Shown here: piece after piece, positions 3,180-46,121 of the stretch
Position numbering within the stretch: position 1 is the stretch's first letter
Layout: each line of letters starts with the position of its first letter
Assembly (NCBI GenBank): GCA_963842805.1
Contig: CAWJIA010000016.1
Span: forward strand, 83,075-147,074
Direction of reading: 5' to 3'
DNA from: an uncultured Chloroflexia bacterium
GTDB taxonomy: Bacteria > Chloroflexota > Dehalococcoidia > GIF9 > UBA5629
Length of the DNA: 64,000 bases
Notes under the pieces: model-generated
The model's input: only the letters and a program-made list of their open reading frames with translations
Told to the model about the DNA's origin: nothing
The model's database searches: none
Translations under genes and position numbers: made by a program

Positions 3180-3180
3180 A

Positions 3181-5661: not shown

Positions 5662-5662
5662 T

Positions 5663-6433: not shown

Positions 6434-6490
6434 GCTTCAAAGCTTCCATCAATTCAGTTTTTCACGAAATAAGTGAATCTCGTTAGAAAC

Positions 6491-9389: not shown

Positions 9390-9529
9390 TATTATTACCC
9401 CTCCTTCTGGGATCCTGCTTTACGTAATACCAAACGCATTTTCATGACTATTTCGGGTAAGCCCTCTAGTTTTCAACACCCATAATTCAATTTAGACTTC
9501 TGTCTCTTCAACTCCTCTTTGCCTTCTTC

Positions 9530-9662
9530 AGTTTTACAGAATAGTGCACAAGTACATCGTTGTAAATCACCCAGAGGCGCTATTTGCGCAAGACCAAGGG
9601 CTAGCGTGGAATAGCTCTAATGTATTACTGGCTCCCATATTGCTACTCCATATTTCTTAGCC
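9530..9662 (-). promoter_or_regulatory. repeat element copy 1: putative sigma70 promoter plus activator palindrome
   Basis: On the minus strand: -35 TTTACA (plus 9561-9566), 17-nt spacer, -10 TATTCT (plus 9538-9543). Palindrome GCGCTATTTGCGC / TTGCGCAA at 9577-9591. It lies upstream of the gene 8361-9389. Near-identical copies occur at 19092 and 24545. Confidence 0.6.
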
Positions 9663-9983
9663 GCCTTTCAAGGCTTTAAAAAGATTGTCCAATGTAGCTG
9701 AGAGCCTTGCAGTACGTGAGTAAATTACCATGCTATCGGCTTTCCAGTTGATGGCAACAACGGTGACATCACCATCAGCACGTTCCAGGAATGGCAATGG
9801 AACCGCGGCATCAATCCGTTTAGCATCAATGATAATAACAGCTGGCTTAAGTTTGGTAGCAAGGCGAACTCCGCTTGATGTATTGGTAGCTGTGGTCACA
9901 GTCATTGATGTCGCCTGTTGGACGATTAACCTCAGCCCATCCCTCTGTAATGGCTGGTTTGATATAACTAGTGCTAATTGCAA
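9657..9983 (-). CDS. stand-alone degenerate response-regulator receiver-like domain protein
   Basis: LALVISNQPLQRDGLRLIV aligns to the NarL-type receiver N-terminus (IVDDHPLVREGLRLL) with DD replaced by SN. KPAVIIID retains the phospho-acceptor Asp position. A 5'-deleted paralog fragment is at 19196-19390. Confidence 0.45.
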   Translation of the reverse strand: MQLALVISNQPLQRDGLRLIVQQATSMTVTTATNTSSGVRLATKLKPAVIIIDAKRIDAAVPLPFLERADGDVTVVAINWKADSMVIYSRTARLSATLDNLFKALKGG

Positions 9984-10132
9984 AACACGCCACCCTCCTA
10001 ATAATCCAGACCTAGCGCATTAGATGATTTGCCAACAGGGCATACGTCAACCGTAGTATTTTCTCCGCACGTCAGCTCTTATTTCTATCACTGACCTTTT
10101 GCTATCTTCTTGCATTGCTATCGCACTCTTAG

Positions 10133-10507
10133 CTAAAGGCATGCTGCTAAAAACTCGTCAACCAACCTGTCGGCGTTCTCCAATATATCGGCAATTTCTC
10201 CCTTGGTTATCTTATCGACATGGATACCCACAACAACACAGACAGCCTTTTGGGTAAACTTACTTATTGAATGAGCCGCACTTTGGGCAATAACATCATC
10301 CTTATGTCCCATCCTGGTAATTACTGACGCAGAAGTCCTTTTTTCCTTTTGGTCGTACTCACCTACAGCGACGGCGCCAATATGAGCGTTTTCATTGAAG
10401 ATACATACTATCAGGTTGTCGCCCAAGTGACGCGCTGACAGATATACTCGTGCTCTGCCTTTTCCTAAAGCTATCTCGTGTATCTTCATTACCTCAAGGA
10501 AAGCCAA
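10133..10507 (-). CDS. hypothetical small protein immediately downstream of ubiX
   Basis: 124-aa ORF. Its start is 3 nt after the ubiX stop, indicating an operon. No family recognised with confidence; it may be a UbiD/UbiX-system accessory subunit. Confidence 0.45.
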   Translation of the reverse strand: MAFLEVMKIHEIALGKGRARVYLSARHLGDNLIVCIFNENAHIGAVAVGEYDQKEKRTSASVITRMGHKDDVIAQSAAHSISKFTQKAVCVVVGIHVDKITKGEIADILENADRLVDEFLAACL

Positions 10508-10509
10508 TC

Positions 10510-11079
10510 TTACTCAGATGGAAGACCGCTCCATCGGTGAAACAAATTATGCTCTATTCCCAAAACGTCTAATACCTTTCCCACCGTGTGGTCGATGACG
10601 TCTTGAATCGTTTTAGGTTTATGATAAAAAGCAGGAATGGGTGGCATAATGACAGCCCCCATCTCAGACAGCTTCTCCATTTGCCTGATATGACCTAAGT
10701 GAAGGGGCGTTTCTCTTATTAAAAGAATTAACTTCTTGCGCTCCTTTAGTGTGACGTCTCCGGCACGGATCAACAAGTTTTCATTATACGAGTTAGCCAA
10801 TGCAGACATTGTTCTTATTGTGCATGGCGCTATTACCATGCCATCTTGCCTGAACGAACCGCTCGAGACGCAAGCTCCAATGTCGTTGATGTTGTAGTAG
10901 AAGCTGGCCATAGCTCGTATTTCGCTAAGTTGCCGATCAATTTCGTGTCTTATAACTAGTTGTCCAGCTTCAGAAATGATGAGATGCGTTTCAATCTCTT
11001 TCATAGTAGAAAGCACCTCCAGCAATCTAACGCCATATATAACACCTGATGCACCTGTAATCCCTATTATCAGCCGCAT
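10510..11079 (-). CDS. ubiX: flavin prenyltransferase UbiX/Pad1 (prFMN synthase)
   Basis: MRLIIGITGASGVIYGVRLLEVL is a typical UbiX flavoprotein N-terminus. At 189 aa the length fits. Confidence 0.85.
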   Translation of the reverse strand: MRLIIGITGASGVIYGVRLLEVLSTMKEIETHLIISEAGQLVIRHEIDRQLSEIRAMASFYYNINDIGACVSSGSFRQDGMVIAPCTIRTMSALANSYNENLLIRAGDVTLKERKKLILLIRETPLHLGHIRQMEKLSEMGAVIMPPIPAFYHKPKTIQDVIDHTVGKVLDVLGIEHNLFHRWSGLPSE

Positions 11080-11193
11080 GTTCGACCTTCCATCTGCAAA
11101 GATGCTAGAGTGAGCAATTCATCAACTGTTTTTTCGCGCTCAAGCAGGTTAGTCTTATTGTAACAACTTTTTGTTGATATATGTTCCACGACT

Positions 11194-12432
11194 TCACCTA
11201 ACGCTTTTCACCTTTACATTTTGAACAATTAGTCGGAACTCATCTTCGGTCAATAAACGCCCAACCTCATAGCCCTTTTGTTTAACTTTCTCGATAACCT
11301 CTCGACCTTCTTCCTCGGTCAGTTTCGTGCCCATTTTATCTGCCCATAATAGAACATTATCCAGTCCGCTTTTCTTGCCAATTACCACCTCAGGCTCTTT
11401 ATGTCCAACGAACTTGGGCGCAACAGGGTGCATAATTGTGGGGTAATGCAATTGGGTGTTTTTGAACATACTGACAGTGAGTCCGCCTTCCATAGCATTT
11501 AATAGATCTCCTACAAACGGTCGATTAGGCGGCATTCCAGCAAGCTCATCCACCAGCTTAGAAAGCTCAGTAAGTTTATCGTATTTGATGCCTACATCGA
11601 TTCCGTACAGGATCAAAAGCGCCATCACAGTCTCCGCCATAGAGCAGTTACCACTCCCCTCACCTATCCCATTAACTGTTGAATGAATGACCTCGCCACC
11701 AGCTAGTACAGCCATCACAGTATTGGCTGAAGCCATACCAAAATTGTTATGAAAGTGGATTTCCAATGGTTTCTTTATCTTTTCCTTGACAGTCTTTGTG
11801 TAGTAGCTTGCACCGTGCGGAGACAGTGCACCGAAAGTATCCACCAGTGTGAGAGCATCCATGTGTCCTTCCATAGCGATTTTGTTAATAACATTTAGAT
11901 ACCACTCCATACCCGCTCTGGTAGCGTCCATGGGGAAAAAAACTACATACAGTCCCTGTTCATGCGCAAATCGAGTTGCTTCAATTGGAAGGGCTAGGGC
12001 TTTCTCCAAGGGCCAGCCGTATGCATGTTTGATAAGATGTTCAGAGACAGGGATCTCTATCTGTACGCCACTCACCCCACAATCAACTGCCCTTTTTACA
12101 TCATCAACCATACAGCGTGAGAAGCAGAAAATTTGGGGGCCGAGGTTGCGTTTCACTATCTCCTTAATTGCAGCTTCATCTTGAGGAGTCACTGCCGGCA
12201 TTCCAGCTTCAATCCGGTGAACCCCAGCTTCAGCCAACTTTTCTGCAATGCGAATCTTATCATCCGTAGTGAACACGATGCCAGCTTGCTGCTCCCCGTC
12301 ACGCAAGGTAACATCATGAATTTTGACCTGTTTTGGGGGCTTGAAATCATCGGTCACCTCTGGTAAAAAGTTCCAAGGACTGACAAACCAATTTTCTGTG
12401 TTCCATGGTTGCCCCTTATCTATTTTCGACAT
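11194..12432 (-). CDS. DRE-TIM metallolyase (HMGL-like; 2-isopropylmalate/homocitrate synthase family) protein
   Basis: KIHDVTLRDGEQQAGIVFTTDDKIRIAEKLAEAGVHRIEAG is the pyruvate carboxyltransferase/HMGL-like domain. A downstream HFHNNFGMA motif is present. Exact specificity is unknown. Confidence 0.65.
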   Translation of the reverse strand: MSKIDKGQPWNTENWFVSPWNFLPEVTDDFKPPKQVKIHDVTLRDGEQQAGIVFTTDDKIRIAEKLAEAGVHRIEAGMPAVTPQDEAAIKEIVKRNLGPQIFCFSRCMVDDVKRAVDCGVSGVQIEIPVSEHLIKHAYGWPLEKALALPIEATRFAHEQGLYVVFFPMDATRAGMEWYLNVINKIAMEGHMDALTLVDTFGALSPHGASYYTKTVKEKIKKPLEIHFHNNFGMASANTVMAVLAGGEVIHSTVNGIGEGSGNCSMAETVMALLILYGIDVGIKYDKLTELSKLVDELAGMPPNRPFVGDLLNAMEGGLTVSMFKNTQLHYPTIMHPVAPKFVGHKEPEVVIGKKSGLDNVLLWADKMGTKLTEEEGREVIEKVKQKGYEVGRLLTEDEFRLIVQNVKVKSVR

Positions 12433-12470
12433 AAATGCCTCCTTTTCGTATCATCTTCTGCTTCTTGATT

Positions 12471-13484
12471 CTAATGTAGTGCTTTCTCAAGAATCTCCAC
12501 CAAGTCAATAACCTTCACGTTGGCCTTTGTATGCCTTGCTGCTCTCTTAAGTTGCATCATACAACTGGGGCAACTTGTTGCGATTATAGAGGCTCCTGTT
12601 GCTAATAATTCCTCGAGTCTTCCCATAGCCAACCTCTGAGACAAAGCTGGATGACTCATCTCTAGTCCACCTCCACCGCAGCAAGTAGACCATTGCTTAC
12701 ACTGCTCAGTTTTTGGCTCCCTCAACTCCAAACCCTCAATACGGCTCATAATCTCTCTGGGCTCGTTAATGATATTGAGATATCTGGAAAGTTGGCAGGG
12801 ATCATGGTAGGTTACCACAAGCTTCTCATGTAGTTTTGGTTTTATTTCTGTTTGTTGTAATCTCTCAGCAACAATTTCAAGGAAATGCTTGACCTCGAAG
12901 TCATAGTGCTCAATGAATTTTGGGTAAAGATTTTGCAGAGAGGAAGTACAAGCTGGGATGATCCCTATTATTTTCTTTACTCTAAGAGACTTGAGCAATT
13001 CGAAGTTCTTTTTGGCGTTTTCGATATACTTATCTACAAAACCCGCATAATAGATCGGAGATCCACAGCATGGCTCATCCTCGTATAGATACCCTATATC
13101 AACTGTAAGCTTGCGAAGAACATAGACTGCGCTCGTAAGACATTTTGTATACGGGTCTTGTTTCCCGGCCGAAGTAAGCTCGGCGGTGATGCTCGTTATG
13201 TCAATACCCGCTTTGCCAAAAGTCTTGCCCAGACTTATGCCTTTGTCCATACCTAGACCTATTCTCTCCATCCTGCCAACTGCATCCATCATTCCCTCAG
13301 CATACCTCATGAATTGATAGCCACAACCAGCGAAAAATGTGTATTCGGCTTGTTTTGGTAGATCGAGACCTTTTGCCCATGCAGCCTTATCTTGAGCAAC
13401 GCCCACAATGTTGCCTTCGTTTATTATATTGTCCTTGATGTAGTTGTAACCTTCAGGCACTATGCCCTTGAGAGATTTGTTCAT
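12471..13484 (-). CDS. CCG-domain Fe-S protein (GlcF/HdrD/LutA-like C-terminal half)
   Basis: Two cysteine-rich CCG motifs: CCGSPIYYAGF and TCCGGGGLEMSHPAL. The likely start is ATG at 13482-13484 (MNKSLKG), which overlaps the stop of the upstream ferredoxin-domain ORF as ATGA. The track ORF extends to 13613. Confidence 0.7.
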   Translation of the reverse strand: MNKSLKGIVPEGYNYIKDNIINEGNIVGVAQDKAAWAKGLDLPKQAEYTFFAGCGYQFMRYAEGMMDAVGRMERIGLGMDKGISLGKTFGKAGIDITSITAELTSAGKQDPYTKCLTSAVYVLRKLTVDIGYLYEDEPCCGSPIYYAGFVDKYIENAKKNFELLKSLRVKKIIGIIPACTSSLQNLYPKFIEHYDFEVKHFLEIVAERLQQTEIKPKLHEKLVVTYHDPCQLSRYLNIINEPREIMSRIEGLELREPKTEQCKQWSTCCGGGGLEMSHPALSQRLAMGRLEELLATGASIIATSCPSCMMQLKRAARHTKANVKVIDLVEILEKALH

Positions 13485-13825
13485 CTTTTTCCACCTTCCT
13501 GAGTTTGCGCATCTCTTATTAATAGAGTTCTGGCTTTTACTATGACGTCTGTGGGGTTTGAACCAGTGCCTACTGCCTTGCATCGTTCTTGACACCGGCG
13601 GCAAATTGCACATGAAAATAACAAGTCGCTCAGCTCCTCCGTACTACCCAATCCGTATTTGAAGTGATAGTTTATAGCCAAAATCCTACCTATAGGACTA
13701 TAACTTAGCCATCCCTCATATGTAGGGCAGGCGCTGACGCACATTCTACATTTAAAACATCTCGCTACGCTATCCAGCATTTGAATTTCTAGCTCGTTTA
13801 AACCATTAACAATCATGTCATTCAC
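13481..13825 (-). CDS. 2x[4Fe-4S] ferredoxin-domain protein (GlcF N-terminal half-like)
   Basis: CFKCRMCVSACP and CAICRRCQERC motifs. It sits between the GlcD-like and CCG-domain genes with start/stop coupling. Confidence 0.55.
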   Translation of the reverse strand: MNDMIVNGLNELEIQMLDSVARCFKCRMCVSACPTYEGWLSYSPIGRILAINYHFKYGLGSTEELSDLLFSCAICRRCQERCKAVGTGSNPTDVIVKARTLLIRDAQTQEGGKR

Positions 13826-15239
13826 CTTCCAAATTCCCGGGATTCAATATATTGTTCGGATCGATTGCCTTCTTTATATTCACAAGCATCGAATATGCTG
13901 CTTCACCATATCTTTCTCTCAAGAAGGGTATTCGCCATGCAGTTTGTCCCACTTCTCCAGAGGCACAACCCCACTTTAAATTCAACTCCTTTTCAAGTAA
14001 GAGGGCCTCTTTTCCACATTGCATTGTCTTGGCCGGCGGCCAATTTTCTGGCGTCACCCATAGCGCGTGCAAGTCACATGTACCTATATGGCCGTACATA
14101 AGTATCTTGGCTTCATGTAGTACGCCATAGCTGTGGTCTATCTTTATGTACTGCAAGGCATCGGCAAGATGACTCAATGGCACTGCAGCCTCAAGTCCTC
14201 CCGAGTTATAAAGTTTTTCCTTTCCCTCGCCGGTTTGCAAAATGTTTAATATGTTGTCACGTGCTTCCCAATAGCTTTCTCTCTCATGCCACGATGTAAC
14301 AACATGAGCATCGACCGCCCTTTCGGTCTGAAAGACTTTCACTATCTCATGGGCGCGGCGATCGGCCTCCTCCTGGGTGTAACCTGTTGTTACCGCCAAA
14401 GCCATATTACCTTGTGGTTTTCCCAAACCCCTCAACTTGAACGGTGCTACACAGGCTTCCGCATCTAAGTACTCTCCATATAAAGGGGGCGGTAATTTCT
14501 GTCTGTAAATCTTCATAAAAGCATGTGCGATATCGGTAATCTCTGGGAAAAAACCAACAACATTAGCCTTCTTGAAATCTGGAAGCAGACGCATTCTAAT
14601 TCTGGTGATAACTCCGAACAACCCCTCGGTTCCAGCGAAAAATCTCGTATAATCAATCCCAGCAGGCTTCCTGATGCTTCTGGTACCGGTTTCTATAATT
14701 TCACCATTGGGTAAAACTACCTCGACACCCATCACGTGGTCTATTATTTTCCCCAAACATATATCGACCATGTGCCCAATAGTGTTTATGGCAACTGCAC
14801 CACCTATTGTGGCTGAGAATTTACTACCTATATTCATAGGCAGAAAATATCCGTGCTCTAGTAGCGCTCTTTCTAAATCAAGTTGATTTACTCCGGCACC
14901 AACCTCGAAATATAAATCCTCTTCGTACATTTCAAAGTGTTTAAGCCCCTGCGTGCTGAGGAGTATGCTACCTGGGCGTTTTGGTCTTGATGAACCCTTA
15001 AAAGCAGTACCTGAACCGTGAATGTAAACAGGAATTCTTTGTTTATTTGCGTATTGCAACATCTTAGCCACTGCTTGTGTTGAAGTAGGCTTGACAACCA
15101 CAAGAGGTATCTGGCTAGCTTCAAGGTCGGCTCCTCCTGAATCGTGGCCATACCCTATCCTTTCATAGATGCTGTCTGAAATGTTTTCCTTGCCGACAAT
15201 GGATGTCAAATCTTGGATTAGACTTTTGTGCTGAACCAT
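13818..15239 (-). CDS. FAD-linked oxidase (GlcD/D-lactate dehydrogenase-like, PCMH-type FAD-binding domain)
   Basis: 473-aa ORF with LEASQIPLVVVKPTSTQAVAKMLQYANKQRIPVYIHGSGTAF, the pattern of an FAD_binding_4 domain. Confidence 0.75.
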   Translation of the reverse strand: MVQHKSLIQDLTSIVGKENISDSIYERIGYGHDSGGADLEASQIPLVVVKPTSTQAVAKMLQYANKQRIPVYIHGSGTAFKGSSRPKRPGSILLSTQGLKHFEMYEEDLYFEVGAGVNQLDLERALLEHGYFLPMNIGSKFSATIGGAVAINTIGHMVDICLGKIIDHVMGVEVVLPNGEIIETGTRSIRKPAGIDYTRFFAGTEGLFGVITRIRMRLLPDFKKANVVGFFPEITDIAHAFMKIYRQKLPPPLYGEYLDAEACVAPFKLRGLGKPQGNMALAVTTGYTQEEADRRAHEIVKVFQTERAVDAHVVTSWHERESYWEARDNILNILQTGEGKEKLYNSGGLEAAVPLSHLADALQYIKIDHSYGVLHEAKILMYGHIGTCDLHALWVTPENWPPAKTMQCGKEALLLEKELNLKWGCASGEVGQTAWRIPFLRERYGEAAYSMLVNIKKAIDPNNILNPGNLEGE

Positions 15240-15390
15240 ATAAATTACTCTCCCTCTTTACTGTGTTGTCTCAAATATGCAAGTATTCAGGTCGGTTCGG
15301 AAGTGTCTAGAATTCCCCTCCGGATAAATTTTCGTAAGCTATTAAATAAACTGTTAACTGCATTCGCGTCAAGAATCGTTGTAATGACAT

Positions 15391-16053
15391 TCAAGGAACC
15401 GACCTGCGGCTTTTTGGGTCACCACTGCTGTTTGGATAGTTTAAAAGACTCAAAATTTTGTCTACCCCTTGCTTCAAATATTGCTCAATCTCACTAACGG
15501 TTTGCTTAGCAAATTCATCAGAAAAGGCGTAATCACAAGTATCAGGAATATATGCCGGAATGTTTAGAGAATCTTCTATGACGGTGGGCCCTGACACCGC
15601 GAAAACCTCTCTAAAGGTAAACACCTTCCCCTGGCTTTGCGGATATTGAGATAATATTGCAGCTTTCTGTACATGTTCCATAGTAATGATCAGATGCGCT
15701 CGGTTCGCCATCTTTCCATCGAAAGGTGCTGACCTGTGACTTGAGATATCTATACCTTTATTAAGGCAAATGTCTATGATTTGTTGGGGAGGATGACTAC
15801 CGAACCTAGGTACGGGTATACCCAATTGGTTTGATAATTGCACGACGTCTTCAGTAACGATTCCTGCGGATGACACTGCGATACTGCCGGCCAGATTAAT
15901 ATAATCTTGTTGTAGCAGTTTGCATAAGAAATACTCTGCGATCGCACTTCGGCAACGATTGAAGGTGCAAGTAAAGATAACCAACCGCCACTGCTTGTCT
16001 GCTGTTTCAATTTGTGAACTTCGCTCTATCGTACTGTGATTTGCGTTATGCAT
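15391..16053 (-). CDS. low-molecular-weight phosphotyrosine phosphatase / ArsC-family protein
   Basis: P-loop VIFTCTFNRCRS (CX5R(S/T)) is the LMW-PTP signature. At 220 aa it is somewhat long, so the start is uncertain. Confidence 0.6.
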   Translation of the reverse strand: MHNANHSTIERSSQIETADKQWRLVIFTCTFNRCRSAIAEYFLCKLLQQDYINLAGSIAVSSAGIVTEDVVQLSNQLGIPVPRFGSHPPQQIIDICLNKGIDISSHRSAPFDGKMANRAHLIITMEHVQKAAILSQYPQSQGKVFTFREVFAVSGPTVIEDSLNIPAYIPDTCDYAFSDEFAKQTVSEIEQYLKQGVDKILSLLNYPNSSGDPKSRRSVP

Positions 16054-16079
16054 AACTTTATCTCATGCAGTATGAGAAA

Positions 16080-16856
16080 TTAAAGCGTTATTCTGTTTTC
16101 AGCAAAAAATATTTGCCCCGATATGTTTTCGTACTTGGTTAGATTGACAACGAAACGCGCAAACTCTTCGGGTGTTTGATTGCGTCCTAGAAGACCTCCT
16201 CCCACCTCACCTGGCCTGAAGACCCACTCCATTCTAGGATGAACGACAGGTCCCGGAATTACGATATTTACTTTTATGTTGTATTGCCCCAATTCTATCG
16301 CAGCAGTTCTACTTAAGCCAATGAGCCCACCCTTAGCTGCGGCGTAGGCCGCGTTGCCTGCTCGTCCCCGCAATCCAATAGCTCCGCCAATATTTATAAT
16401 ATGTCCGCCTCCCTGCTTTATCATGTGCGGAGCTACAGCTTTAATACAATTGAAGGGGCCAGTTAATTGTGAACTTAGAAACCATCCCCATTCATCATTT
16501 CCCATATCGACTATTGACGTGCCTTCCTTTTTACTGCCAGTAGCAAATTCGGTATTCATAGGCCAAGCCCCGGCATTATTCACAAGAATATCGATGCTTT
16601 TCCACATCTTCAACGTTTCTGCAACCATTGCCTCCACTTCTTGATAATTCCCGACATCGGCTTTGAATGCGACGGCCGCACCTGGACCTGCCCTATTGAT
16701 TTGCTCAGCAATACCCTGAGCTGCGTCTTTGGACCTATTGTAGTTTACTATCACCTTAGCTCCTTTGGTCGCAAACTGGAGCGCCATCTGACTTCCCAAG
16801 CCACCAGAGGCACCAGTAACTATTGCAATCCTTCCTGTTAACTTATCGTTGTCCAT
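16080..16856 (-). CDS. short-chain dehydrogenase/reductase (SDR)
   Basis: IAIVTGASGGLGSQMALQFATKGAKVIV (TGxxxGxG), with a YxxxK region. Confidence 0.8.
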   Translation of the reverse strand: MDNDKLTGRIAIVTGASGGLGSQMALQFATKGAKVIVNYNRSKDAAQGIAEQINRAGPGAAVAFKADVGNYQEVEAMVAETLKMWKSIDILVNNAGAWPMNTEFATGSKKEGTSIVDMGNDEWGWFLSSQLTGPFNCIKAVAPHMIKQGGGHIINIGGAIGLRGRAGNAAYAAAKGGLIGLSRTAAIELGQYNIKVNIVIPGPVVHPRMEWVFRPGEVGGGLLGRNQTPEEFARFVVNLTKYENISGQIFFAENRITL

Positions 16857-17085
16857 CTATTACTCCCAAGACATTATCATTATGCACTAAATATTACGCT
16901 GTAACCGTGTCGCGGCTTTGTTTACCAAATCAATATCAAAGCCGAATTTAGCATGTGGTCATAAGTCACTAACTGAAACCACCGACTGGGGCTTCCTTAT
17001 CCCTATAAAAGCCCCAGTCGGCGTTCAAAACCCTTTATAACTAATTCCTGTCTGAATCCGGGGCACCGCCAACAGATAAAGGTGT

Positions 17086-18762: not shown

Positions 18763-19091
18763 AACTTAATTCTCCTCACTTTATTTTTCTAGTATTAATC
18801 CCCGTCTTTATTATTTGATTTTCTTAGATTTGCTACTCACGCACCTCCTTGTTCGTTTCGCGCAATTGGTTCACTCAACATCGTGCTATCAGCATTACAC
18901 GGTACCTTTTTTATTCTTAGATATTATCCCCTCCTAACTAAAGACTCATCAATAAAAGTTGCTACATTGACTTTGGTGGAAAAGGCTAATTTGACCAAGT
19001 TAATGTTTTGCGTATAGCAATCCTTAGTTTTCAAAGGTAGCTATTCTTAGTTTGGGCTTCTATAATCTTTGACTTCTCTTTGTATTCCTCG

Positions 19092-19232
19092 CATTTTACA
19101 GGATAGTGCACACGTAAGTCGTTGTAAATCCCCCAGAGGCGCTATTTGCGCAAGACCAAGGGCTAGTGTGGAATAGCTCTAATGTATTACCAGACTCACA
19201 TATCGCCACTCCTATTTCTTAGCCTATTTCTT
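19092..19232 (-). promoter_or_regulatory. repeat element copy 2 (promoter -35/-10 plus palindrome); homology to the copy-1 region continues to ~19560
   Basis: Minus strand: -35 TTTACA (19123-19128), 17-nt spacer, -10 TATCCT (19100-19105). GCGCTATTTGCGCAA is present. It lies ~330 nt upstream of the gene 17086-18762. Confidence 0.6.
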
Positions 19233-19390
19233 AGCCGCTTTTTTAGGACTTTTGAAAGATTGTCCCATGTGGCTGGGAGCCCTGCGATACGTGAGTAAAT
19301 TACCATGCTACCGGCTTTCCAGTCGATGGAAACAGCGGTGATATCACCATAAACACGTTCCAGGAATGGCAATGGAACCGCGGCATCCAT
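19196..19390 (-). pseudogene. truncated paralog of the receiver-like gene 9657-9983
   Basis: The 64-aa ORF MDAAVPLPFLERVYGDITAVSIDWKAGSMVIYSRIAGLPATWDNL matches the C-terminal half of the 108-aa protein. The 5' half is missing and the flanking homology shows an internal deletion. Confidence 0.5.
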
Positions 19391-19648
19391 TTGCTTAGTA
19401 TCTAGCTCGTCCTGACCTGATACCTGTTAGAAATAACTAGTGCTAATTCCAAGAAAGTCAACTTCCTAGTACGCCGCATTTATCGAATTAAATAGGTTGT
19501 CAATAGGGTGTAGGCCAACAGCAGTATTCTCCGCACATAGACCTTATTTCTGCAACTAACCCTTTTTGGGCTATATTTTGCTTTGCCGAAACCCTTGAAG
19601 TATAATCAATCGTATACTAATTCTTGGACTAAAACAGCGCTTCATTAG

Positions 19649-20356
19649 ATGGAATTGCCAACGCGCATATCCAAAAGGATTGTACCTGTGGCAGCAAGGA
19701 TAATTATAGCGTACCCGAGAGAGTTGGGCAGGGAAGGCCTCGCAAGGACACTGACTGATAGGACTGAGTTTCACATAGTAGGCAGGTGCTCCACTGGTCG
19801 GAAGACGATAGAGCGGGCTGGTCGGATCAAACCGGATATCATAATTCTGAGTTCAGAAATTTCCGAGTGCGGCTGCATCGAAGTTATAGAGGGGGTAAAA
19901 CAACTTTCACCGAAGACTCACATAATTATCCTCAGCGTATTCCAAGACGGGAAGGAACTTTCGCTAGCCCTGAAAGCAGGTGCCAAAGCATATTTGGGCC
20001 ATCGCACTTCAGTCCGCGAGATCATATCAGCCATTCGTCATGTGCAGACCGGCGGAGTCGTTATCAGCGCTAATTTCGTGGACAAACTGCTCGCTTCTGG
20101 TGTGAAATCCGAGATAGACTATGACTTAAGTGACCGAGAAGTAGATATCATCAAACTGCTGGCTAAAGGCCTTTCTAACGAAGAAATTGCGAGCACTTTG
20201 TTTATCTCAAAACACACAGTGAAGGTACATTTGAGCCATATTATGGAGAAGATGCATGTGCATAGTCGGCAACGGGCCGCCATTTTGGCAATACAGTCAG
20301 GGGTCGCAATTAATGAGCCCGAAACCAAAGTACCTCAAAAGCTAGGGACAAGTTGA
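19649..20356 (+). CDS. LuxR/NarL-family response regulator with atypical (phospho-acceptor-less) receiver domain
   Basis: The C-terminal LSDREVDIIKLLAKGLSNEEIASTLFISKHTVKVHLSHIMEKM is a LuxR HTH. In the receiver, IIIAYPRELGREGL has DD replaced by AY, and PDIIILSSE has Ser at the phospho-acceptor position. Confidence 0.7.
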   Translation: MELPTRISKRIVPVAARIIIAYPRELGREGLARTLTDRTEFHIVGRCSTGRKTIERAGRIKPDIIILSSEISECGCIEVIEGVKQLSPKTHIIILSVFQDGKELSLALKAGAKAYLGHRTSVREIISAIRHVQTGGVVISANFVDKLLASGVKSEIDYDLSDREVDIIKLLAKGLSNEEIASTLFISKHTVKVHLSHIMEKMHVHSRQRAAILAIQSGVAINEPETKVPQKLGTS

Positions 20357-20507
20357 AATCTGGGTGGCGCCACCTTTTACTCGCAGGTTCTGGTATAAGT
20401 TGATCATAAAAAAACTAATTAAGCAGGGGACGTAAAAACGCTAACGCCAGGTAGGTAAACTAGTTTTCCATAGAAGAGTCTGAACAAGTACTTCAGTGTC
20501 TATTCTT

Positions 20508-21782
20508 TTAGGAATTTCTCTTGTTTTTGTCTCCCATAAAGTAGCCTACCCAATAATGCCAAGGTCTGATTGAAAGCAATTCATCGTCAAGAACTGTTTT
20601 TTCTAACTCTGCCAGGTTATCTTTTCTTAGCATCTTTGAAAACAGTAAGCCAGCAAACTCACAGCTATTGATTAGTTGCACGCCTGCCAACCTTTTTTCC
20701 GCAATAATTAACCTATAATATCTTGAGCCGGTAGTCCTTTCGACCACATCGTAGTCATTCTGGCTTTTAAAGCAGGCCGCAGACTTCCCAAAAGATAACG
20801 CATAAGTGCCAAAGACTTCCAGACTAGTGGCGTTAATAGAACCTATAAACCTTCTTCGTTGCCCAGCACAATTAAAACCTGCGATCGATCCTTGCCTCCT
20901 TGCATTGGGCCAAAGCAGGCTTAAAGTGTTCTCGCTGGTGACAGCGTCTTTTGCCTCAATGCAATCGCCACAAGCATATATATTCTCCATGTTTGTCGCC
21001 ATATAATCATCGGTTCTTATGCCACCGTGGGATCCAATCTCCAATCCCATAGTCTCCGCCAATTCCGTGTTTGGCTTTACACCCACTGCCATTATAACCA
21101 TGTCGCATGGTAACTCATTGCCATCAGTGACTATACCTTTCACGCTTTCATCACCGATGATCTCACTCGCTTTTTTTTCTGTTAGAATCTTAATGCCCTG
21201 ACGTTCCATTATTTCCCTAAGGATTGAAGATGCGCAGTCATCAAAAAGTCTGGGTAATATACGATTAAATAGTTCGATAATACTCACTTCTAGCCCCTTT
21301 TTACGAAAAGCTATAGCCATCTCAATCCCTATGGGGCCAGACCCCACAACAACAACTTTCTTAGCGGGGTAATCGAAGATAAATTGGGCATCATCGATTG
21401 TCTTTGGAGCGAAAATCCCTTTCTTACCAACCCCTTTAATGGGGGGAATAACAGGTTTGCTACCTGTTGCCAAAACAAGCTTATCGAATTGGATACTTTT
21501 GTCGTCAATGACAACTTCTTTTATTCGAGCGTCTACCCGTGACACCTTGTTACCAAAGATTACTTTTATCCTATGCTCAGAATAGTCCTGGGACTTTTTG
21601 AGGAATAGTTTTTCTTTCTCCATCTCGCCCGCCAAATACTTATAGAATGCACACGGAGAATATAGTGGATATCTCTCTTCAGAAATAATCGTAATACCAA
21701 CATCTCTATCGAATTTTCTAATTGCTTCGGCAGCGCTATTTCCTGCAATGCCATTACCTATGATTATGATATCTTGACTCAC
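20508..21782 (-). CDS. FAD-dependent pyridine-nucleotide-disulfide oxidoreductase family protein (AorC-like NAD-binding subunit of tungsten AOR)
   Basis: IIIIGNGIAGNSAAEAIRKF is an FAD-binding motif, and VVVVGSGPIGIEMAIAF is a second Rossmann fold. The gene is immediately downstream of the AOR gene. Confidence 0.65.
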   Translation of the reverse strand: MSQDIIIIGNGIAGNSAAEAIRKFDRDVGITIISEERYPLYSPCAFYKYLAGEMEKEKLFLKKSQDYSEHRIKVIFGNKVSRVDARIKEVVIDDKSIQFDKLVLATGSKPVIPPIKGVGKKGIFAPKTIDDAQFIFDYPAKKVVVVGSGPIGIEMAIAFRKKGLEVSIIELFNRILPRLFDDCASSILREIMERQGIKILTEKKASEIIGDESVKGIVTDGNELPCDMVIMAVGVKPNTELAETMGLEIGSHGGIRTDDYMATNMENIYACGDCIEAKDAVTSENTLSLLWPNARRQGSIAGFNCAGQRRRFIGSINATSLEVFGTYALSFGKSAACFKSQNDYDVVERTTGSRYYRLIIAEKRLAGVQLINSCEFAGLLFSKMLRKDNLAELEKTVLDDELLSIRPWHYWVGYFMGDKNKRNS

Positions 21783-21852
21783 GGAACGTACTCTCCTCTA
21801 TAAGACAAATCTAGAAACGCTCGACCTCGATAGGCTAATTGTTTCTCCCGGC

Positions 21853-23823
21853 TTAGTTGATTGGATATCCTGATTTCTCAAGGTCATCAACAATGTCTTT
21901 GAGACCGACATCTACAAGTTTCTTTCTTGTTGGTATCCCAAGCTGCGTATCCCACCCGCTTTCGTTGTAGAAATCATCCAGTATTTGTTCACAGTCGGCG
22001 GGCGTTAATCGTTTTCCCCAATAGTCTTCTAAGTGAGTCTCTATCCCATGTCTTATCACGGGCTCAAACCATCGATCAGGAAATTTATCATCTTTCCGCG
22101 TGAATCCTTCGCGTAGATTAAGAACCTTGAGCAAGTTGTATGATCTCGTACCAACTGCCAACAATTCACTTGATGTTATTTCTAAGCCAGTTACTGCCTT
22201 GTAAATTTCAACAGCTAATCTCATGTCATAGACTAAACCACCCCTCTCCCTTTCACACCCGATACCGAGCGAGTTAAAAATAAGGTTCCGTTCTTGAGTC
22301 CACTTAGTTAGGCGGCCAATGTTGTATCTACCAGGTTTATCGAAAATTCTCTCAATCGCGTCACCAGGCAAGCAGGTCGCTTCAGCCCACTTCTTAGCTA
22401 TTAGGTGAGCATCAGGTAGATCTCTCGTCATGTATAACGACATAATGGGTGCTCGCCCAGGATGAGCTCCTTTTGGATAGACAACCTGACCAAACTCAGT
22501 TATGCTTAGCCTGTTTATCCTAGCATCATAAAGGGGTGGCATTCCCTTGACATGTATGGCAAGCTTATCACAGCCTCTGCCAATCTTCTCGATACCGCTC
22601 AGCATCCCGCTGCCAAGGATGCTACCGAAATCTTCGTTTTGTGCTACCTGGGTAGCGAGTTTAATGGTGGTATCGAAGTCCCACTCAAGTGCCTGACCAC
22701 CTGTATCTTCCTTGGTTATTATGCCATTCTTGTACAATTCAACAGCCCAATCTATGATAGCTGTCAAATCATGTACACACAGGCCCATTCGCTGAAAATA
22801 ATCAAGGCATTTTACGAAACGGTTGAAACTTCCAACATTGGTGCGAGCTGCAAAATTTTCTAATCGCCCATAAAAGGATGAGCCATATGTGTCAAGACCA
22901 GCAAACTCGCCATCTCTTATCCGTACATGGTCCTTACAGCCTACCGGGCATGAAAAACAAGCAATTCTATCCCCCCTGATATTTTTTTCATATACCTCCC
23001 AGCCGTATAGTTTGCGAGCCTCATCAATCGAGAACGTTGTGGCCCAGTTCTTTTGAGAGGCTCCTTGCCTTTCAAACCAAACGGGAAAACCAATCATTGT
23101 TCCTAGTTCAATAAGTCTTCCGAGATTAGGGTCATTCTTAACACGCTCTATAAGTGGAGAGATTATTTGTTTGAGGTGATCAGGCTCTGCAATCTTCAGT
23201 CCCTTGCTACCATTCGCTACAATGGCTTTCATCTTCTTGGAACCCAGTACAGCCGGTAATCCGCCTTTGCCCAAAGTATGTACTTTGTCCACTAGGCCGA
23301 CAGTTGTATTCACCATGCGTTCACCGGCAGGGCCTATGGTAAATACGGAAGCGTTGTCATGCTCCTTCCATAATATGTCGGTGGTTTCAAAAATGTCTTT
23401 GCCCCATATGTGAGTGGCATCACAAATTTCAGCGTCATCGTTCAATATATTTAAGTAAACGGGTTTATTTGACTGGCCGACTATAATGACGTAATCATAA
23501 CCTGCCCATTTCATCATAGGCCCAAAGTCACCTCCGGCATGTGAGTTCTCAATAACGCCGTAGGTTGGGTGCTTGAAGAGGGCAAATACTCTGCTGCTCG
23601 CAGGTACTGGTGTGCCAACAATAGGACCTGCGCCGAGAATTACAGGACTATTCTCATCGAAAGGGTCCATTTTCGGCGGGATAAGGTCATAGGCCAATCG
23701 GAAATTTATACCCTCAGGACCTATATATTTCCTAATCAGTTCTATGTCGAGCGCTTTTTTTTCAATAGAACGGGTCGTCAAGTCCACTTTGAGGATACTT
23801 CCTGCATAACCTCCGATTTCCAT
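21853..23823 (-). CDS. aldehyde:ferredoxin oxidoreductase family tungsten enzyme (AorB-like)
   Basis: The N-terminus MEIGGYAGSILKVDLTTRSIEKKALDIELIRKYIGPEG is the canonical AOR N-terminal domain. At 656 aa the length fits. Confidence 0.85.
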   Translation of the reverse strand: MEIGGYAGSILKVDLTTRSIEKKALDIELIRKYIGPEGINFRLAYDLIPPKMDPFDENSPVILGAGPIVGTPVPASSRVFALFKHPTYGVIENSHAGGDFGPMMKWAGYDYVIIVGQSNKPVYLNILNDDAEICDATHIWGKDIFETTDILWKEHDNASVFTIGPAGERMVNTTVGLVDKVHTLGKGGLPAVLGSKKMKAIVANGSKGLKIAEPDHLKQIISPLIERVKNDPNLGRLIELGTMIGFPVWFERQGASQKNWATTFSIDEARKLYGWEVYEKNIRGDRIACFSCPVGCKDHVRIRDGEFAGLDTYGSSFYGRLENFAARTNVGSFNRFVKCLDYFQRMGLCVHDLTAIIDWAVELYKNGIITKEDTGGQALEWDFDTTIKLATQVAQNEDFGSILGSGMLSGIEKIGRGCDKLAIHVKGMPPLYDARINRLSITEFGQVVYPKGAHPGRAPIMSLYMTRDLPDAHLIAKKWAEATCLPGDAIERIFDKPGRYNIGRLTKWTQERNLIFNSLGIGCERERGGLVYDMRLAVEIYKAVTGLEITSSELLAVGTRSYNLLKVLNLREGFTRKDDKFPDRWFEPVIRHGIETHLEDYWGKRLTPADCEQILDDFYNESGWDTQLGIPTRKKLVDVGLKDIVDDLEKSGYPIN

Positions 23824-23837
23824 AGTAACTTTACCTC

Positions 23838-24344
23838 TTAGCCGAACGCGATATTCTGAAGCATTTCGCTAAGTTTTCGAATAGCTTCCTTTCGCCTAAG
23901 TATCGCAGCTTCATCCAGCGTAATATATTCTATGGCTCCATAACTGCAGAATTTTGCGCACAGTGGTTCGCCTCCACATAAGTCACATTTCACTGAATGT
24001 CCTGCTTCAGCATCTATCGATATCCCGCCGAGGGGACAGGCAATCATGCACATGCAGCAAGCAATGCATCTGTCAGCGTCAACAACCATCGCCCCTGTTT
24101 TATCGTCCCTCGATATAGCGCCCATTGGACAGACATCTGCACAGAGGGGTTTAACACATTGGCGACAGACTACAACTACATTTACATTGACTGCCCTCAA
24201 TCTAATTGGCAAAAGCCTCGAACTCCTTGGAGCAACAATGCTTCCATGTTGCATTGAACAAGCCAGTACACAAAGCATGCACCCCACACATTTTGCTGGA
24301 TTCACAAACAATACTTTCGGCATGATCCCTGAGTCGCTAGTCAC
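23838..24344 (-). CDS. poly-[4Fe-4S] ferredoxin (AorA-like electron-transfer subunit)
   Basis: Four CxxCxxCxxxCP-like motifs: CVGCMLCVLACS, CRQCVKPLCADVCP, CIACCMCMIACP and CDLCGGEPLCAKFC. Confidence 0.75.
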   Translation of the reverse strand: MTSDSGIMPKVLFVNPAKCVGCMLCVLACSMQHGSIVAPRSSRLLPIRLRAVNVNVVVVCRQCVKPLCADVCPMGAISRDDKTGAMVVDADRCIACCMCMIACPLGGISIDAEAGHSVKCDLCGGEPLCAKFCSYGAIEYITLDEAAILRRKEAIRKLSEMLQNIAFG

Positions 24345-24544
24345 GAAATGATGGCGTTAAAAAATTCTAGTAGGCATTGAGAACCTAACTGCTTTTTGTT
24401 TAGTACATAATTTTGCTTAAAAGATACTTCGTTAGTATTTTTATCGTACTGTGTTATGGCTTATATACTGGATACCTCTAGTTTTCAGCGGCTTTCATTT
24501 TTAATTTGGATCTCTAGCCCTTAATGTTACTCGCATATTATTCA

Positions 24545-24678
24545 CCTTTAACAGGATAGTGCACAAGTATTTCATTGTAAATCCCCCACAGGCGCTATTT
24601 GCGCAAAACCAAGGGCTAGTGTGGAATAGCTCTAATGTATTACCAGTCCCCATATCGCTACTCCCTATTTCTTAGCTG
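24545..24678 (-). promoter_or_regulatory. repeat element copy 3 (core only)
   Basis: Minus strand: -35 TTTACA (24576-24581), 17-nt spacer, -10 TATCCT (24553-24558). GCGCTATTTGCGCAA is present. It lies ~200 nt upstream of the aorA-like start at 24344. Confidence 0.6.
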
Positions 24679-24967
24679 AGTTTATTATAAGGGCCTCCCA
24701 TTTTTTGTATCAGCCTTAATGTAATTTTGCGGATCACATTTAGCCTTTGCAGCCGTCAATGCGTATTCGAGTGGAGCCAGATTCCCCAGCGCTCTGTGAG
24801 GCCGATCTCTATTATACTGCCGCCGCCAAGCGTCGCCTTTCTTCCGCCTGTACATTCCGTCAGATTGTTAGCCTGAACTGGAAGAATCGAATGCCTGGAC
24901 TACCTGTTCAACAAAAGATTGCCAGCCATAGTCTTTTAGTAGTTACGGCAGTCTATGACAGTCGTTG

Positions 24968-46105: not shown

Positions 46106-46121
46106 TCCGGAGATATTAAGA

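What the first reader, a model, noticed from the sequence alone, without database searches (positions are those of the whole stretch)
9530..24678. Three copies of a ~135-bp promoter/operator element define a candidate regulon of anaerobic aromatic-catabolism operons
**What is seen.** A near-identical ~135-bp core occurs at 9530-9662, 19092-19232 and 24545-24678. Each copy lies 140-330 nt upstream, on the minus strand, of a different operon:
- the pps-beta-like / UbiD / HAD / OYE / GltD operon
- the pps-alpha-like / SDR / phosphatase operon
- the aorABC-like operon.

**Promoter reading.** Read on the minus strand, every copy has TTTACA, a 17-nt spacer, then TATTCT or TATCCT. The hexamers and spacer length are conserved while the spacer sequence varies, which is the signature of a sigma70 promoter. 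Centred about 24 bp upstream of the -35 is the palindrome GCGCTATTTGCGC, overlapping TTGCGCAA. That position fits a class-I activator site.

**Candidate regulators.** Two atypical receiver-domain regulators are encoded beside the copies: the LuxR-type gene at 19649-20356, and the receiver-only gene at 9657-9983 with its pseudo-copy at 19196-19390. Either could be the cognate factor.
Basis: seen in the sequence. Interest (0 to 1): 0.72.

Follow-up and report, generated by a model that had tools for sequence, protein, structure and literature searches.

The report
Triplicated promoter-operator cassette of a catabolic island
Three operons of an anaerobic phenol-type degradation gene cluster each carry a copy of the same roughly 200-base upstream DNA block, which most likely acts as a shared promoter and regulator-binding region: a real but fairly ordinary way to build a small regulon.

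Summary
The repeat is real. Three same-strand copies lie 141, 330 and 201 nt upstream of the ppsB-like, ppsA-like and AOR-type operons, and nowhere else in the 64-kb window.

It is larger than reported: about 200 nt is shared by all three copies. Copies A and B share a further 162 nt, the 3' half of a small ORF.

In two ortholog comparisons the core is 83-93% identical, like coding DNA. Four-fold degenerate sites are 68-85% identical and neighbouring non-coding DNA 37-65%.

TTTACA-17-TATYCT, the palindromes and TGTGCAC are invariant in every copy recovered. Each copy has a different left junction, so any shared promoter must lie inside the block.

Copies A and B evolve in concert in the core (6 sites against 0) but as orthologs in the 5'UTR (0 against 4).

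An aspartate-less NarL/LuxR regulator is divergent from copy B in three lineages. A sister lineage lacks both the element and this regulator and has a PAS/sigma54 activator with a perfect sigma54 box.

RNA, small-ORF, MITE and sigma54 readings were tested and rejected.

Verdict: a lineage-specific duplicated promoter/operator cassette, probably read by the LuxR-type protein. Transcription starts and binding are untested. The 108-aa ORF is a truncated receiver remnant and cannot bind DNA.

The parts
9463..9661 (-). Copy A of the shared block. It runs from GCTAAGAAATA, which overlaps the stop codon of the 108-aa ORF, to TTGAAAACTAGAGG. It lies upstream of the ppsB-like/UbiD/HAD/OYE/GltD-like operon, whose first ATG is at 9389.
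9538..9566 (-). Candidate sigma70-type promoter in copy A: TTTACA (9566-9561), 17-nt spacer, TATTCT (9543-9538). The inferred transcription start is near 9531.
   Evidence: The boxes are invariant in all copies.
9577..9591 (.). Overlapping palindromes TTGCGCAA (9584-9591) and GCGCAAATAGCGC (9577-9589) in copy A, centred about -52 and -56 relative to the inferred start.
   Evidence: The 31-nt block from the palindrome to the -35 hexamer is 94-100% identical in all pairs.
9597..9618 (.). Inverted repeat AGAGCTA-N8-TAGCCCT in copy A, centred about -76. Six of 7 positions are complementary here and 7 of 7 in the L002/L092 lineage.
   Evidence: Read.
19022..19235 (-). Copy B of the shared block, upstream of the ppsA-like/SDR/LMWPc/FAD-oxidase operon (ATG at 18762). 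Features: -35 at 19128-19123, -10 at 19105-19100, palindromes at 19139-19153, and a 12-nt tandem duplication CCTATTTCTTAG at 19211-19234.
19241..19402 (-). Extension of copy B: a pseudo-copy of the 3' half of the 108-aa ORF, 86% identical to 9666-9827. It is absent from the orthologous B copy in L092, so it is dispensable.
24475..24686 (-). Copy C of the shared block, upstream of the Fer4/AOR/Pyr_redox_2 operon (GTG at 24344). Features: -35 at 24581-24576, -10 at 24558-24553, palindromes at 24592-24606. The left edge is cut by a transposase remnant.
24685..24855 (-). Remnant of a transposase C-terminus (rve_3) that abuts and truncates the left edge of copy C. Collinearity with the related strain L090 ends at 24686.
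9657..9983 (-). 108-aa ORF: a truncated, degenerate receiver-domain remnant with no DNA-binding domain. Its 3' half travelled with the element into copy B and into L001.
19649..20356 (+). NarL/LuxR-type regulator (GerE HTH plus receiver) lacking the acidic pocket and the phospho-acceptor Asp. The likely true start is GTG at 19688. It is divergent from copy B and is the best candidate for the cognate factor.
1554..9389 (-). Operon A: ppsB-like, PpcB-like UbiD, HAD, a 217-aa protein, OYE and a GltD-like Fe-S flavoprotein.
10133..18762 (-). Operon B: ppsA-like, SDR, LMWPc, FAD oxidase, CCG protein, HMGL-like, UbiX and an LpdD-like chaperone. It reads towards the 108-aa ORF and copy A.
20508..24344 (-). 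Operon C: Fe-S protein, tungsten-type aldehyde:ferredoxin oxidoreductase family protein and a pyridine-nucleotide-disulphide oxidoreductase.

Best explanation
**What it is.** The element is a self-contained promoter-plus-operator cassette of about 200 bp. It is specific to one narrow lineage of uncultured anaerobes.

**How it arose (inferred).** It spread by segmental duplication from the region upstream of ppsB. It dragged along pieces of the neighbouring small ORF. It now heads three operons of one phenol-type catabolic island.

**How it works (inferred).**
- RNA polymerase with the housekeeping sigma factor most likely starts about 7 nt after the conserved TATYCT box.
- The weak -10 hexamer suggests that the promoter depends on a regulator.
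- That regulator would bind the invariant 100 bp upstream: palindromes at about -52/-56 and an inverted repeat at about -76. It might also bind the invariant TGTGCAC inside the spacer.
- The best candidate is the aspartate-less NarL/LuxR protein encoded divergently from copy B. It would act without phosphorylation, perhaps sensing a ligand or redox signal.

**What is shown.** The repeat, its extent, constraint on the core, concerted evolution of the A and B cores, and co-occurrence with the LuxR gene.

**What is inferred.** The transcription start, the binding, and whether the regulator activates or represses.
For: 1. **Position.** Three copies, same strand and orientation, each ahead of the first gene of an operon, and none elsewhere in the window.
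2. **Constraint at locus A.** Window against L002: core 0.83-0.88 identical, the adjacent 5'UTR 0.37-0.57, the ppsB-UbiD spacer 0.53-0.60, four-fold sites 0.68-0.85.
3. **Constraint at locus B.** Window against L092: core 0.85-0.93, downstream UTR 0.45-0.65, ppsA four-fold sites 0.68.
4. **Uneven divergence among paralogs.** Core 94-97% identical, spacer plus -10 hexamer 83%, first 80 nt of the UTR 56-61%, then no similarity.
5. **Invariant boxes.** TTTACA-17-TATYCT, TTGCGCAAATAGCGCC and TGTGCAC are unchanged in all eight complete distinct copies and in every partial copy that spans them (12 sequences, three lineages). The variation lies in the first half of the spacer.
6. **Different left contexts.** Upstream of the copies lie:
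   - an intact ORF;
   - a pseudo-ORF;
   - the LuxR promoter region in L092;
   - an IS remnant;
   - an Rrf2 gene in L001.
   A promoter common to all must therefore lie inside the block. Operon B must have a promoter in its intergenic region, because its upstream neighbour is divergent.
7. **Regulator co-occurrence.**
   - The LuxR-type gene is conserved next to copy B in three lineages, at 100, 82 and 76% aa identity.
   - In L092 it starts only 116 nt from the edge of the element.
   - The sister lineage (ppsA 72% aa) has neither. It has a divergent PAS/Sigma54_activat regulator and a perfect TGGCAC-N5-TTGCT box.
8. **Canonical -10 boxes are used here.** The LuxR gene has its own conserved TATAAT.
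Against: - The promoter match is 9 of 12, and such matches are not enriched over shuffles.
- No transcription start, expression or binding data exist.
- A second -35-like motif (TTGAAAACTA) is conserved at the distal end of the block. It could belong to the real promoter, although its -10 partner is not conserved.
- Part of the core's conservation could come from gene conversion rather than selection.
- No copy of the palindromes lies in the LuxR gene's own proximal region, so autoregulation is not indicated.
- The rest of the source genome could not be searched.
Confidence: 0.6

Rival explanations
1. The core is a passive duplication relic. The three blocks would be leftovers of segmental duplications and IS-mediated rearrangements, kept alike by gene conversion. 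They would have no shared regulatory role beyond whatever promoter they happen to contain.
For: - Left junctions vary, and pieces of an ORF were dragged along.
- An IS remnant sits at the edge of copy C.
- All six informative core sites group A with B within each genome rather than by orthology.
- In the L089/L090 lineage, A and B are identical over about 200 nt.
- Metagenome contigs break inside the block.
Against: - Conversion homogenises copies within a genome, but it does not explain why the core stays 83-93% identical between lineages whose four-fold sites are 68-85% identical and whose neighbouring non-coding DNA is 37-65% identical.
- It does not explain why divergence stops sharply at the -10 hexamer.
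- It does not explain why all copies keep the same orientation and position ahead of operons.
- A against C shows orthologous, not converted, signal (4 sites against 0), yet the C core is equally conserved.
Confidence: 0.15
2. The core is an upstream regulatory region, but the real promoter lies further downstream. It might use the conserved TTGAAAACTA motif as its -35 hexamer, or lie in the copy-specific UTR. TTTACA-17-TATYCT would then be coincidental or a second promoter.
For: - YTGRAAnnTA is an island of conservation in an otherwise diverged UTR.
- Copy A has TTGAAA-18-AATAGT.
- Copy C has CTGAAA-17-TATAAG (read).
- Copy B has a second conserved island at 18822-18881.
Against: - The matching -10 hexamer is absent or poor in B, L002 and L004.
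- TTTACA-17-TATYCT is invariant in all copies.
- The block of strongest conservation ends exactly at the proposed -10 hexamer.
Confidence: 0.12
3. The core is a cis-acting RNA, such as a riboswitch, attenuator or protein-binding leader. It would be transcribed from further upstream and would control the three operons after initiation.
For: - Conservation over more than 100 nt is longer than a single operator needs.
- A recurrent hairpin GGAGUAGC...GCUAUUCC keeps a G-U pair in copy B.
- The 5'UTRs are long, at 140-330 nt.
Against: - No Rfam match at gathering or E<=1 thresholds other than a chance lncRNA hit.
- Fold z-scores are +0.5, -1.8 and +0.2 on the sense strand and about 0 on the antisense strand.
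- The RNAalifold covariation term is unfavourable, and no compensatory pairs fall in the core.
- No terminator-like hairpins were found.
- No conserved promoter lies upstream, because every copy has a different left context.
Confidence: 0.06
4. The element is a miniature mobile element, or a recombination site linked to the nearby serine recombinase or IS elements.
For: - It is repeated.
- Assembly breaks occur inside it.
- An IS remnant (24685-24855) and a serine recombinase (25924-27498) lie nearby.
- Copy B has a 12-nt tandem duplication at its left end.
Against: - There are no terminal inverted repeats and no consistent target-site duplication.
- Five different left boundaries and a gradual right boundary were found.
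- The element is always in the same orientation ahead of an operon.
- There were no hits in plasmids, phages or viral contigs, none among representative genomes of 185,579 species, and only one in JGI metagenome contigs.
Confidence: 0.05

Closest known systems
PheR / sigma54 control of the pps-ppc phenol cluster in Aromatoleum aromaticum EbN1 (PMC10715001)
   Same: A dedicated regulator gene flanks the phenylphosphate-synthase cluster and controls its promoter. The sister lineage found here has exactly this layout: a divergent PAS/Sigma54_activat/HTH_8 gene and a TGGCAC-N5-TTGCT box upstream of ppsA (L094).
   Different: The window lineage has no sigma54 box at any operon start and no enhancer-binding protein. 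It has a sigma70-like cassette in three copies and a NarL/LuxR-type regulator, and the genes are split into three transcription units.
SecR, an atypical NarL/RcsB-like response regulator that activates several serine-cycle promoters (PMC13199381)
   Same: It is a GerE-type regulator with a receiver domain that lacks the phosphorylation motif and has no cognate kinase. It is encoded beside the catabolic genes and binds the promoters of several operons of one pathway.
   Different: Binding and activation are shown experimentally for SecR and only inferred here. The pathway and organisms are unrelated. Here Asp-Asp is replaced by Tyr-Pro and the phospho-acceptor Asp by Ser, and the clade has conserved cysteines.
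Reiterated symbiotic promoter regions in rhizobia, such as the homologous upstream regions of nifH and fixA (recalled from the 1980s literature; not retrieved here)
   Same: A promoter plus its upstream activator region, more than 100 bp long, is duplicated in front of several operons of one function. The repeats serve as substrates for recombination.
   Different: Those are sigma54/NifA promoters on symbiotic plasmids. Here the promoter is sigma70-like and the candidate regulator is LuxR-type.
MITEs and REP/BIME-type intergenic repeats
   Same: They are short non-coding repeats that break short-read assemblies.
   Different: This element has no terminal inverted repeats, no fixed ends and no scatter. 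It keeps a strict orientation ahead of operons.

Membership tests
sigma70-type promoter | -35 and -10 hexamers close to TTGACA/TATAAT, separated by 16-18 nt | tested here: met
   TTTACA-17-TATTCT/TATCCT, 9 of 12, with A at position 2 and T at position 6 of the -10 hexamer, in all three copies and in all orthologous copies.
sigma70-type promoter | The match is better than chance for the region | tested here: inconclusive
   Two to four matches of this quality per 800-1000 nt, against 1.7-2.3 in shuffles. The support comes from positional invariance, not from the score.
sigma70-type promoter | Transcription starts 5-9 nt after the -10 hexamer | not testable with these tools
   No transcript data were available.
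operator / regulon signal of a transcription factor | The same motif lies upstream of several operons, in a fixed orientation and at a fixed distance from the promoter | tested here: met
   Palindromes lie 17-20 bp upstream of the -35 hexamer in all copies and nowhere else in 64 kb.
operator / regulon signal of a transcription factor | Conserved in orthologous loci beyond the neutral expectation | tested here: met
   Core 0.83-0.93 identical, against four-fold sites 0.68-0.85 and flanking non-coding DNA 0.37-0.65.
operator / regulon signal of a transcription factor | Co-occurrence with a DNA-binding regulator | tested here: met
   The LuxR-type gene is adjacent in three lineages. Both are absent from the sister lineage, which has a sigma54 activator.
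operator / regulon signal of a transcription factor | Demonstrated binding and a regulatory effect | not testable with these tools
   This needs EMSA, footprinting or reporter assays.
sigma54 promoter | TGGCAC-N5-TTGCW (GG-N10-GC) on the strand of the operon | tested here: not met
   A regex scan finds none at the operon starts in the window. The sister lineage has a perfect box. A weak GG-N10-GC (AGGCGC-TATTT-GCGCA) exists only on the opposite strand.
cis-regulatory RNA (riboswitch or leader) | Match to a known family, or a stable conserved structure with covariation | tested here: not met
   Rfam found nothing. Fold z-scores range from -1.8 to +0.5. There is no compensatory change in the core and the covariation term is +1.06. 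The alignment is shallow, so the power of this test is low.
cis-regulatory RNA (riboswitch or leader) | An expression platform such as a terminator or sequestering hairpin | tested here: not met
   No terminator-like sites were found in any of the three regions.
MITE / mobile repeat | Terminal inverted repeats, target-site duplication and fixed ends | tested here: not met
   No consistent inverted repeats. Five different left junctions. Only copy B has a 12-nt tandem duplication.
MITE / mobile repeat | Scattered through the genome next to unrelated genes | tested here: inconclusive
   There are none outside the cluster in 64 kb, and all metagenomic copies are in A, B or C contexts apart from one Rrf2 junction.
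small protein-coding gene inside the element | A reading frame conserved among copies | tested here: not met
   An ATG with a GGAG Shine-Dalgarno motif exists. However, 1-nt indels give a 23-aa product in A, a stop immediately after the ATG in B, 50 aa in C and 4 aa in L001, L002 and L004.
NarL/FixJ response regulator (gene 19649-20356) | C-terminal GerE helix-turn-helix plus an N-terminal receiver fold | tested here: met
   Pfam GerE E 1e-21 and Response_reg E 1e-9. NCBIfam NarL-like hits fall below the curated cut-offs.
NarL/FixJ response regulator (gene 19649-20356) | Acidic pocket (Asp-Asp) and a phospho-acceptor Asp | tested here: not met
   Asp-Asp is replaced by Tyr-Pro and Asp by Ser, in the window protein and in both orthologs. 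It is therefore an atypical pseudo-receiver regulator.

The most novel reading that the evidence does not exclude
The cassette is a portable regulatory module that displaced an ancestral sigma54/PAS-activator control of the phenol-type pathway. It multiplied to split the pathway into three units. It is kept matched to its regulator by concerted change of all copies. The regulator would be a new class of kinase-independent, cysteine-bearing NarL-type one-component sensor that detects a phenolic or redox signal directly.
Probability: 0.15. Interest if true: 0.55.

Novelty: new member of a known kind. Interest (0 to 1): 0.35.

Why it matters
- **A testable regulon.** It gives a concrete prediction for an uncultured anaerobe's aromatic-degradation island: which three transcription units are co-controlled, where the starts and operators should be, and which protein to purify.
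- **Regulatory rewiring.** The contrast with the sister lineage shows a whole regulatory module being swapped while the enzymes stay. That lineage has one array, a sigma54 box and a PAS activator.
- **Concerted evolution.** The core behaves differently from the UTR, which is a clean small example of concerted evolution in non-coding regulatory DNA.
- **A practical point.** The repeat breaks short-read assemblies of this cluster exactly at the promoters.

None of this is a new kind of biology.

Tried and rejected
- **Rfam.** Scans of the window and of L001/L002 found only two tRNAs and a chance lncRNA hit.
- **Single-sequence folding** of both strands gave no signal. **RNAalifold** on six copies showed no covariation.
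- **Small-ORF reading** of the core was rejected because of frameshifts between copies.
- **Sigma54 reading** failed. No box lies on the coding strand, only a weak GG-N10-GC on the opposite strand.
- **ECF-type reading** of GGAAC...CGTT in the ORF part was rejected: the spacing is 19 nt and the motif is absent from copy C.
- **Internal repeats and terminal inverted repeats** showed nothing consistent.
- **Public collections.**
  - The 21-specified-base core pattern gave 0 hits in the representative genomes.
  - It gave 1 hit in JGI metagenome contigs.
  - It gave 0 hits in viral contigs.
  - blastn of the 391-nt region gave none in plasmids or phages.
- **Protein-guided genome scan with ppsB** returned only distant relatives (at most 54% identity) without the element.
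- **Source contig.** The 283-kb source contig could not be retrieved. Exact look-ups of ppsB failed, and the ppsA look-up returned only a 6.5-kb Logan contig.
- **Shared motifs** between the core and the LuxR gene's proximal region were not found.
- **Literature searches** for duplicated-promoter precedents found nothing directly usable.

Full report
**1. Observation**

A single three-member direct-repeat family is found at 9532-9668, 19094-19230 and 24547-24683. A 29-nt core pattern matches three times with at most 2 mismatches, against none in 100 shuffles. An nhmmer profile built from six copies finds only these three places in the 64-kb window, with E from 1e-66 to 1e-79.

All copies are on the minus strand. 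Pfam confirms the operon contents (NCBIfam):
- A: PPDK_N (ppsB-like), UbiD, HAD, OYE, GltD-like.
- B: PEP-utilizers (ppsA-like), SDR, LMWPc, FAD oxidase, CCG, HMGL, UbiX, LpdD-like.
- C: Fer4, AOR, Pyr_redox_2.

The UbiD protein scores 462.8 for phenylphosphate carboxylase beta, just under the cut-off of 468.95.

**2. Extent and anatomy**

The block common to all copies runs from GCTAAGAAATA to TTGAAAACTAGAGG. That is about 200 nt: 9463-9661, 19022-19235 and 24475-24686.

Identity among the three paralogs changes sharply along the block:

| Segment | Identity among A, B, C |
|---|---|
| 69 nt from GTAATAC to the -35 hexamer | 94-97% |
| Spacer plus -10 hexamer | 83% |
| Next 80 nt (5'UTR) | 56-61% |
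| Beyond that | none |

A and B also share 162 nt further upstream (9666-9827 and 19241-19402, 86%). This is the 3' half of a 108-aa ORF.

Inside the core are:
- TTTACA-17-TATYCT;
- TTGCGCAA overlapping GCGCAAATAGCGC, about 17-20 bp upstream of the -35 hexamer, found only in the three copies;
- an inverted repeat AGRGCTA-N8-TAGCCCT about 25 bp further upstream;
- an invariant TGTGCAC abutting the -10 hexamer.

**3. Related sequences**

The source genome is not among the species representatives. Nine metagenomic contigs from close relatives carry the element:

| Loci | Copy type | Notes |
|---|---|---|
| L002, L004 | A | orthologous A loci |
| L001 | A-like | different upstream context (see section 5) |
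| L089 | A and B | copies at the two contig ends |
| L090 | B and C | complete C copy |
| L092, L093 | B | L092 is from the same sample as L002 |
| L085 | B | identical to the window |

Several contigs begin or end inside the core. This is what a multi-copy repeat does to short-read assemblies.

Relatives at or below 74% aa identity do not have the element (L003, L086-L088, L094, L095). It was also absent from plasmid, phage and viral collections.

**4. Constraint**

| Comparison | Core | Adjacent non-coding DNA | Four-fold degenerate sites |
|---|---|---|---|
| Locus A, window vs L002 | 0.83-0.88 | 5'UTR 0.37-0.57; ppsB-UbiD spacer 0.53-0.60 | 0.68-0.85 |
| Locus B, window vs L092 | 0.85-0.93 | UTR 0.45-0.65 | ppsA 0.68 |

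In both comparisons the core is about as conserved as the neighbouring coding DNA.

The promoter hexamers, the palindromes and TGTGCAC are unchanged in all eight complete distinct copies and in every partial copy that spans them (12 sequences, three lineages). Variation within the spacer is confined to 5 of its 17 positions.

**5. Origin and turnover**

The left edge differs in every context:
- Copy A follows the intact ORF.
- Copy B in the window keeps a decayed copy of the ORF. In L090 the homology reaches back to 9957-10119.
- Copy B in L092 starts only at ATGGG and lies 116 nt from the LuxR start.
- Copy C in L090 extends about 50 nt into ORF-derived sequence.
- Copy C in the window is cut at 24685 by an rve_3 transposase remnant.
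- L001 joins an Rrf2-family regulator gene in frame to the last ~50 codons of the ORF, followed by the element and ppsB. This is either a fourth copy or an assembly join through the repeat.

This pattern fits segmental duplication of a promoter region. It does not fit a discrete mobile element.

A quartet test on the A and B copies of the window and L002 lineages gives this result:

| Segment | Sites grouping by orthology | Sites grouping by genome |
|---|---|---|
| Core | 0 | 6 |
| UTR | 4 | 0 |

The core therefore evolves in concert. The cause could be gene conversion or co-ordinated change. A against C, compared between the closer window and L090 lineages, shows orthologous signal only.

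**6. Regulators**

The only DNA-binding regulator in the cluster is the GerE-plus-receiver protein at 19649-20356. Its likely true start is 19688.

It lacks the Asp-Asp pocket and the phospho-acceptor Asp, as do its 82% and 76% orthologs. The wider clade carries conserved cysteines. It stays divergent from copy B in all three lineages. It has its own conserved TATAAT box.

The 108-aa ORF has these properties:
- It matches only profile positions 2-50 of the receiver domain (E 0.0017).
- Its N-terminal 55 residues align with a canonical NarL-type regulator that sits directly upstream of ppsB in a deltaproteobacterial MAG (35% identity, E 2e-6).
- It is intact but weakly constrained: variable sites by codon position are 17, 6 and 15, and non-synonymous codon changes are at least as many as synonymous ones.
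- It has no helix-turn-helix domain.

It is best read as a truncated remnant of an ancestral regulator. At most it could modulate another protein.

**7. Contrast with the sister lineage**

In L094 and L095 (ppsA 72% aa identity) the genes form one array: ppsA-SDR-FAD-Fer4-ppsB-UbiD-HAD-OYE. A divergent PAS/Sigma54_activat/HTH_8 gene lies upstream. A perfect TGGCACAAATATTGCT box lies about 350 nt upstream of ppsA and is conserved in four contigs.

This matches the published sigma54/PheR arrangement of the pps-ppc cluster in Aromatoleum aromaticum (PMC10715001).

The window has no such box at any operon start and no enhancer-binding protein. The element and the LuxR-type gene therefore appear together, at the place where the sister lineage has a different promoter-regulator pair.

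**8. Alternatives tested**

- **RNA element.**
  - No Rfam family was found.
  - Fold z-scores lie between -1.8 and +0.5.
  - There is no covariation.
  - There are no terminator-like hairpins.
  - No common upstream promoter could transcribe it, because the left contexts differ.
- **Small ORF.** The frame is broken between copies.
- **Sigma54 promoter.** Not met on the coding strand.
- **MITE or recombination site.** There are no terminal repeats, no fixed ends and no scatter in the data available.
- **Pure relic homogenised by conversion.** This explains similarity within a genome. It does not explain conservation between lineages or the sharp boundary at the -10 hexamer.
- **A downstream promoter using TTGAAAACTA as its -35 hexamer.** This cannot be excluded, but the motif lacks a conserved -10 partner.

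**9. Conclusion**

The most likely reading (about 0.6) is a lineage-specific promoter/operator cassette, duplicated in front of three operons of one catabolic island. It is probably read by the atypical LuxR-type protein, in the manner of atypical NarL-family regulators such as SecR, which bind several promoters of one pathway (PMC13199381).

The promoter assignment rests on invariance, not on score. No transcription start or binding has been shown, and the rest of the genome could not be scanned.

This is a new example of a known kind of arrangement. It is of moderate interest, mainly for the regulatory swap and the concerted evolution of the core.

Noticed in passing
L094:392-2430 (also L095, L086, L087): The sister lineage (ppsA 72% aa identity) has a divergent PAS/Sigma54_activat/HTH_8 regulator and a perfect sigma54 box TGGCACAAATATTGCT about 350 nt upstream of ppsA. 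All its pathway genes lie in one array, without UbiX, LpdD, HMGL or the AOR operon.
   Followed up: partly
L001:3-533: An Rrf2-family regulator gene is fused in frame to the last ~50 codons of the 108-aa ORF, followed by the element and ppsB. This is either a fourth copy context or a chimeric assembly through the repeat.
   Followed up: partly
window 24685-24855 and 24968-25207: A transposase (rve_3) C-terminal remnant abuts copy C. Upstream of it is a 79-aa protein that consists only of an Lrp/AsnC ligand-binding domain.
   Followed up: partly
window 25924-27498 and 27387-27462: A large serine recombinase gene runs into a tRNA-Ala(CGC) gene on the opposite strand. This looks like the edge of an integrated island that carries the catabolic cluster. 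Related strains have an acyl-CoA dehydrogenase upstream of the AOR operon instead.
   Followed up: no
window 19211-19234: Copy B alone has an exact 12-nt tandem duplication, CCTATTTCTTAG (GGCTAAGAAATA-type on the minus strand), at its left end.
   Followed up: no
window 19649-20356; P0257-P0264: The LuxR-type clade has conserved cysteines (RCSTG, and E-C-x-C next to the lost phospho-acceptor site). More distant members keep the Asp but lack the Asp-Asp pocket. This might indicate redox or metal sensing.
   Followed up: no
one search hits P0031-P0103: Many ppsB-like (PPDK_N) homologs at 50-54% identity are about 500 aa long and are fused to a receiver domain. In L005 a canonical NarL-type regulator sits directly upstream of ppsB. 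A link between receiver domains and this enzyme seems widespread.
   Followed up: no
window 18822-18881: A second island of conservation (0.80-0.82, against 0.45-0.65 around it) lies inside the 330-nt 5'UTR of ppsA, 60-120 nt before the start codon. It includes a GGAGG followed by a 9-codon ORF in the window.
   Followed up: no
window 6491-7921: The UbiD-family protein scores 462.8 bits for phenylphosphate carboxylase beta (TIGR02724), just under the 468.95 cut-off. The cluster also has UbiX and an LpdD-like chaperone, typical of hydroxyarylic acid decarboxylases.
   Followed up: no
window 41200-48709, 48875-51820, 54921-57287: The flanking genome encodes:
- Hdr-like proteins, FolD and formate-tetrahydrofolate ligase, suggesting an anaerobe with a Wood-Ljungdahl-type pathway;
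- a 981-aa DUF4062/NACHT protein;
- a glycyl-radical enzyme of the PFL family.
   Followed up: no
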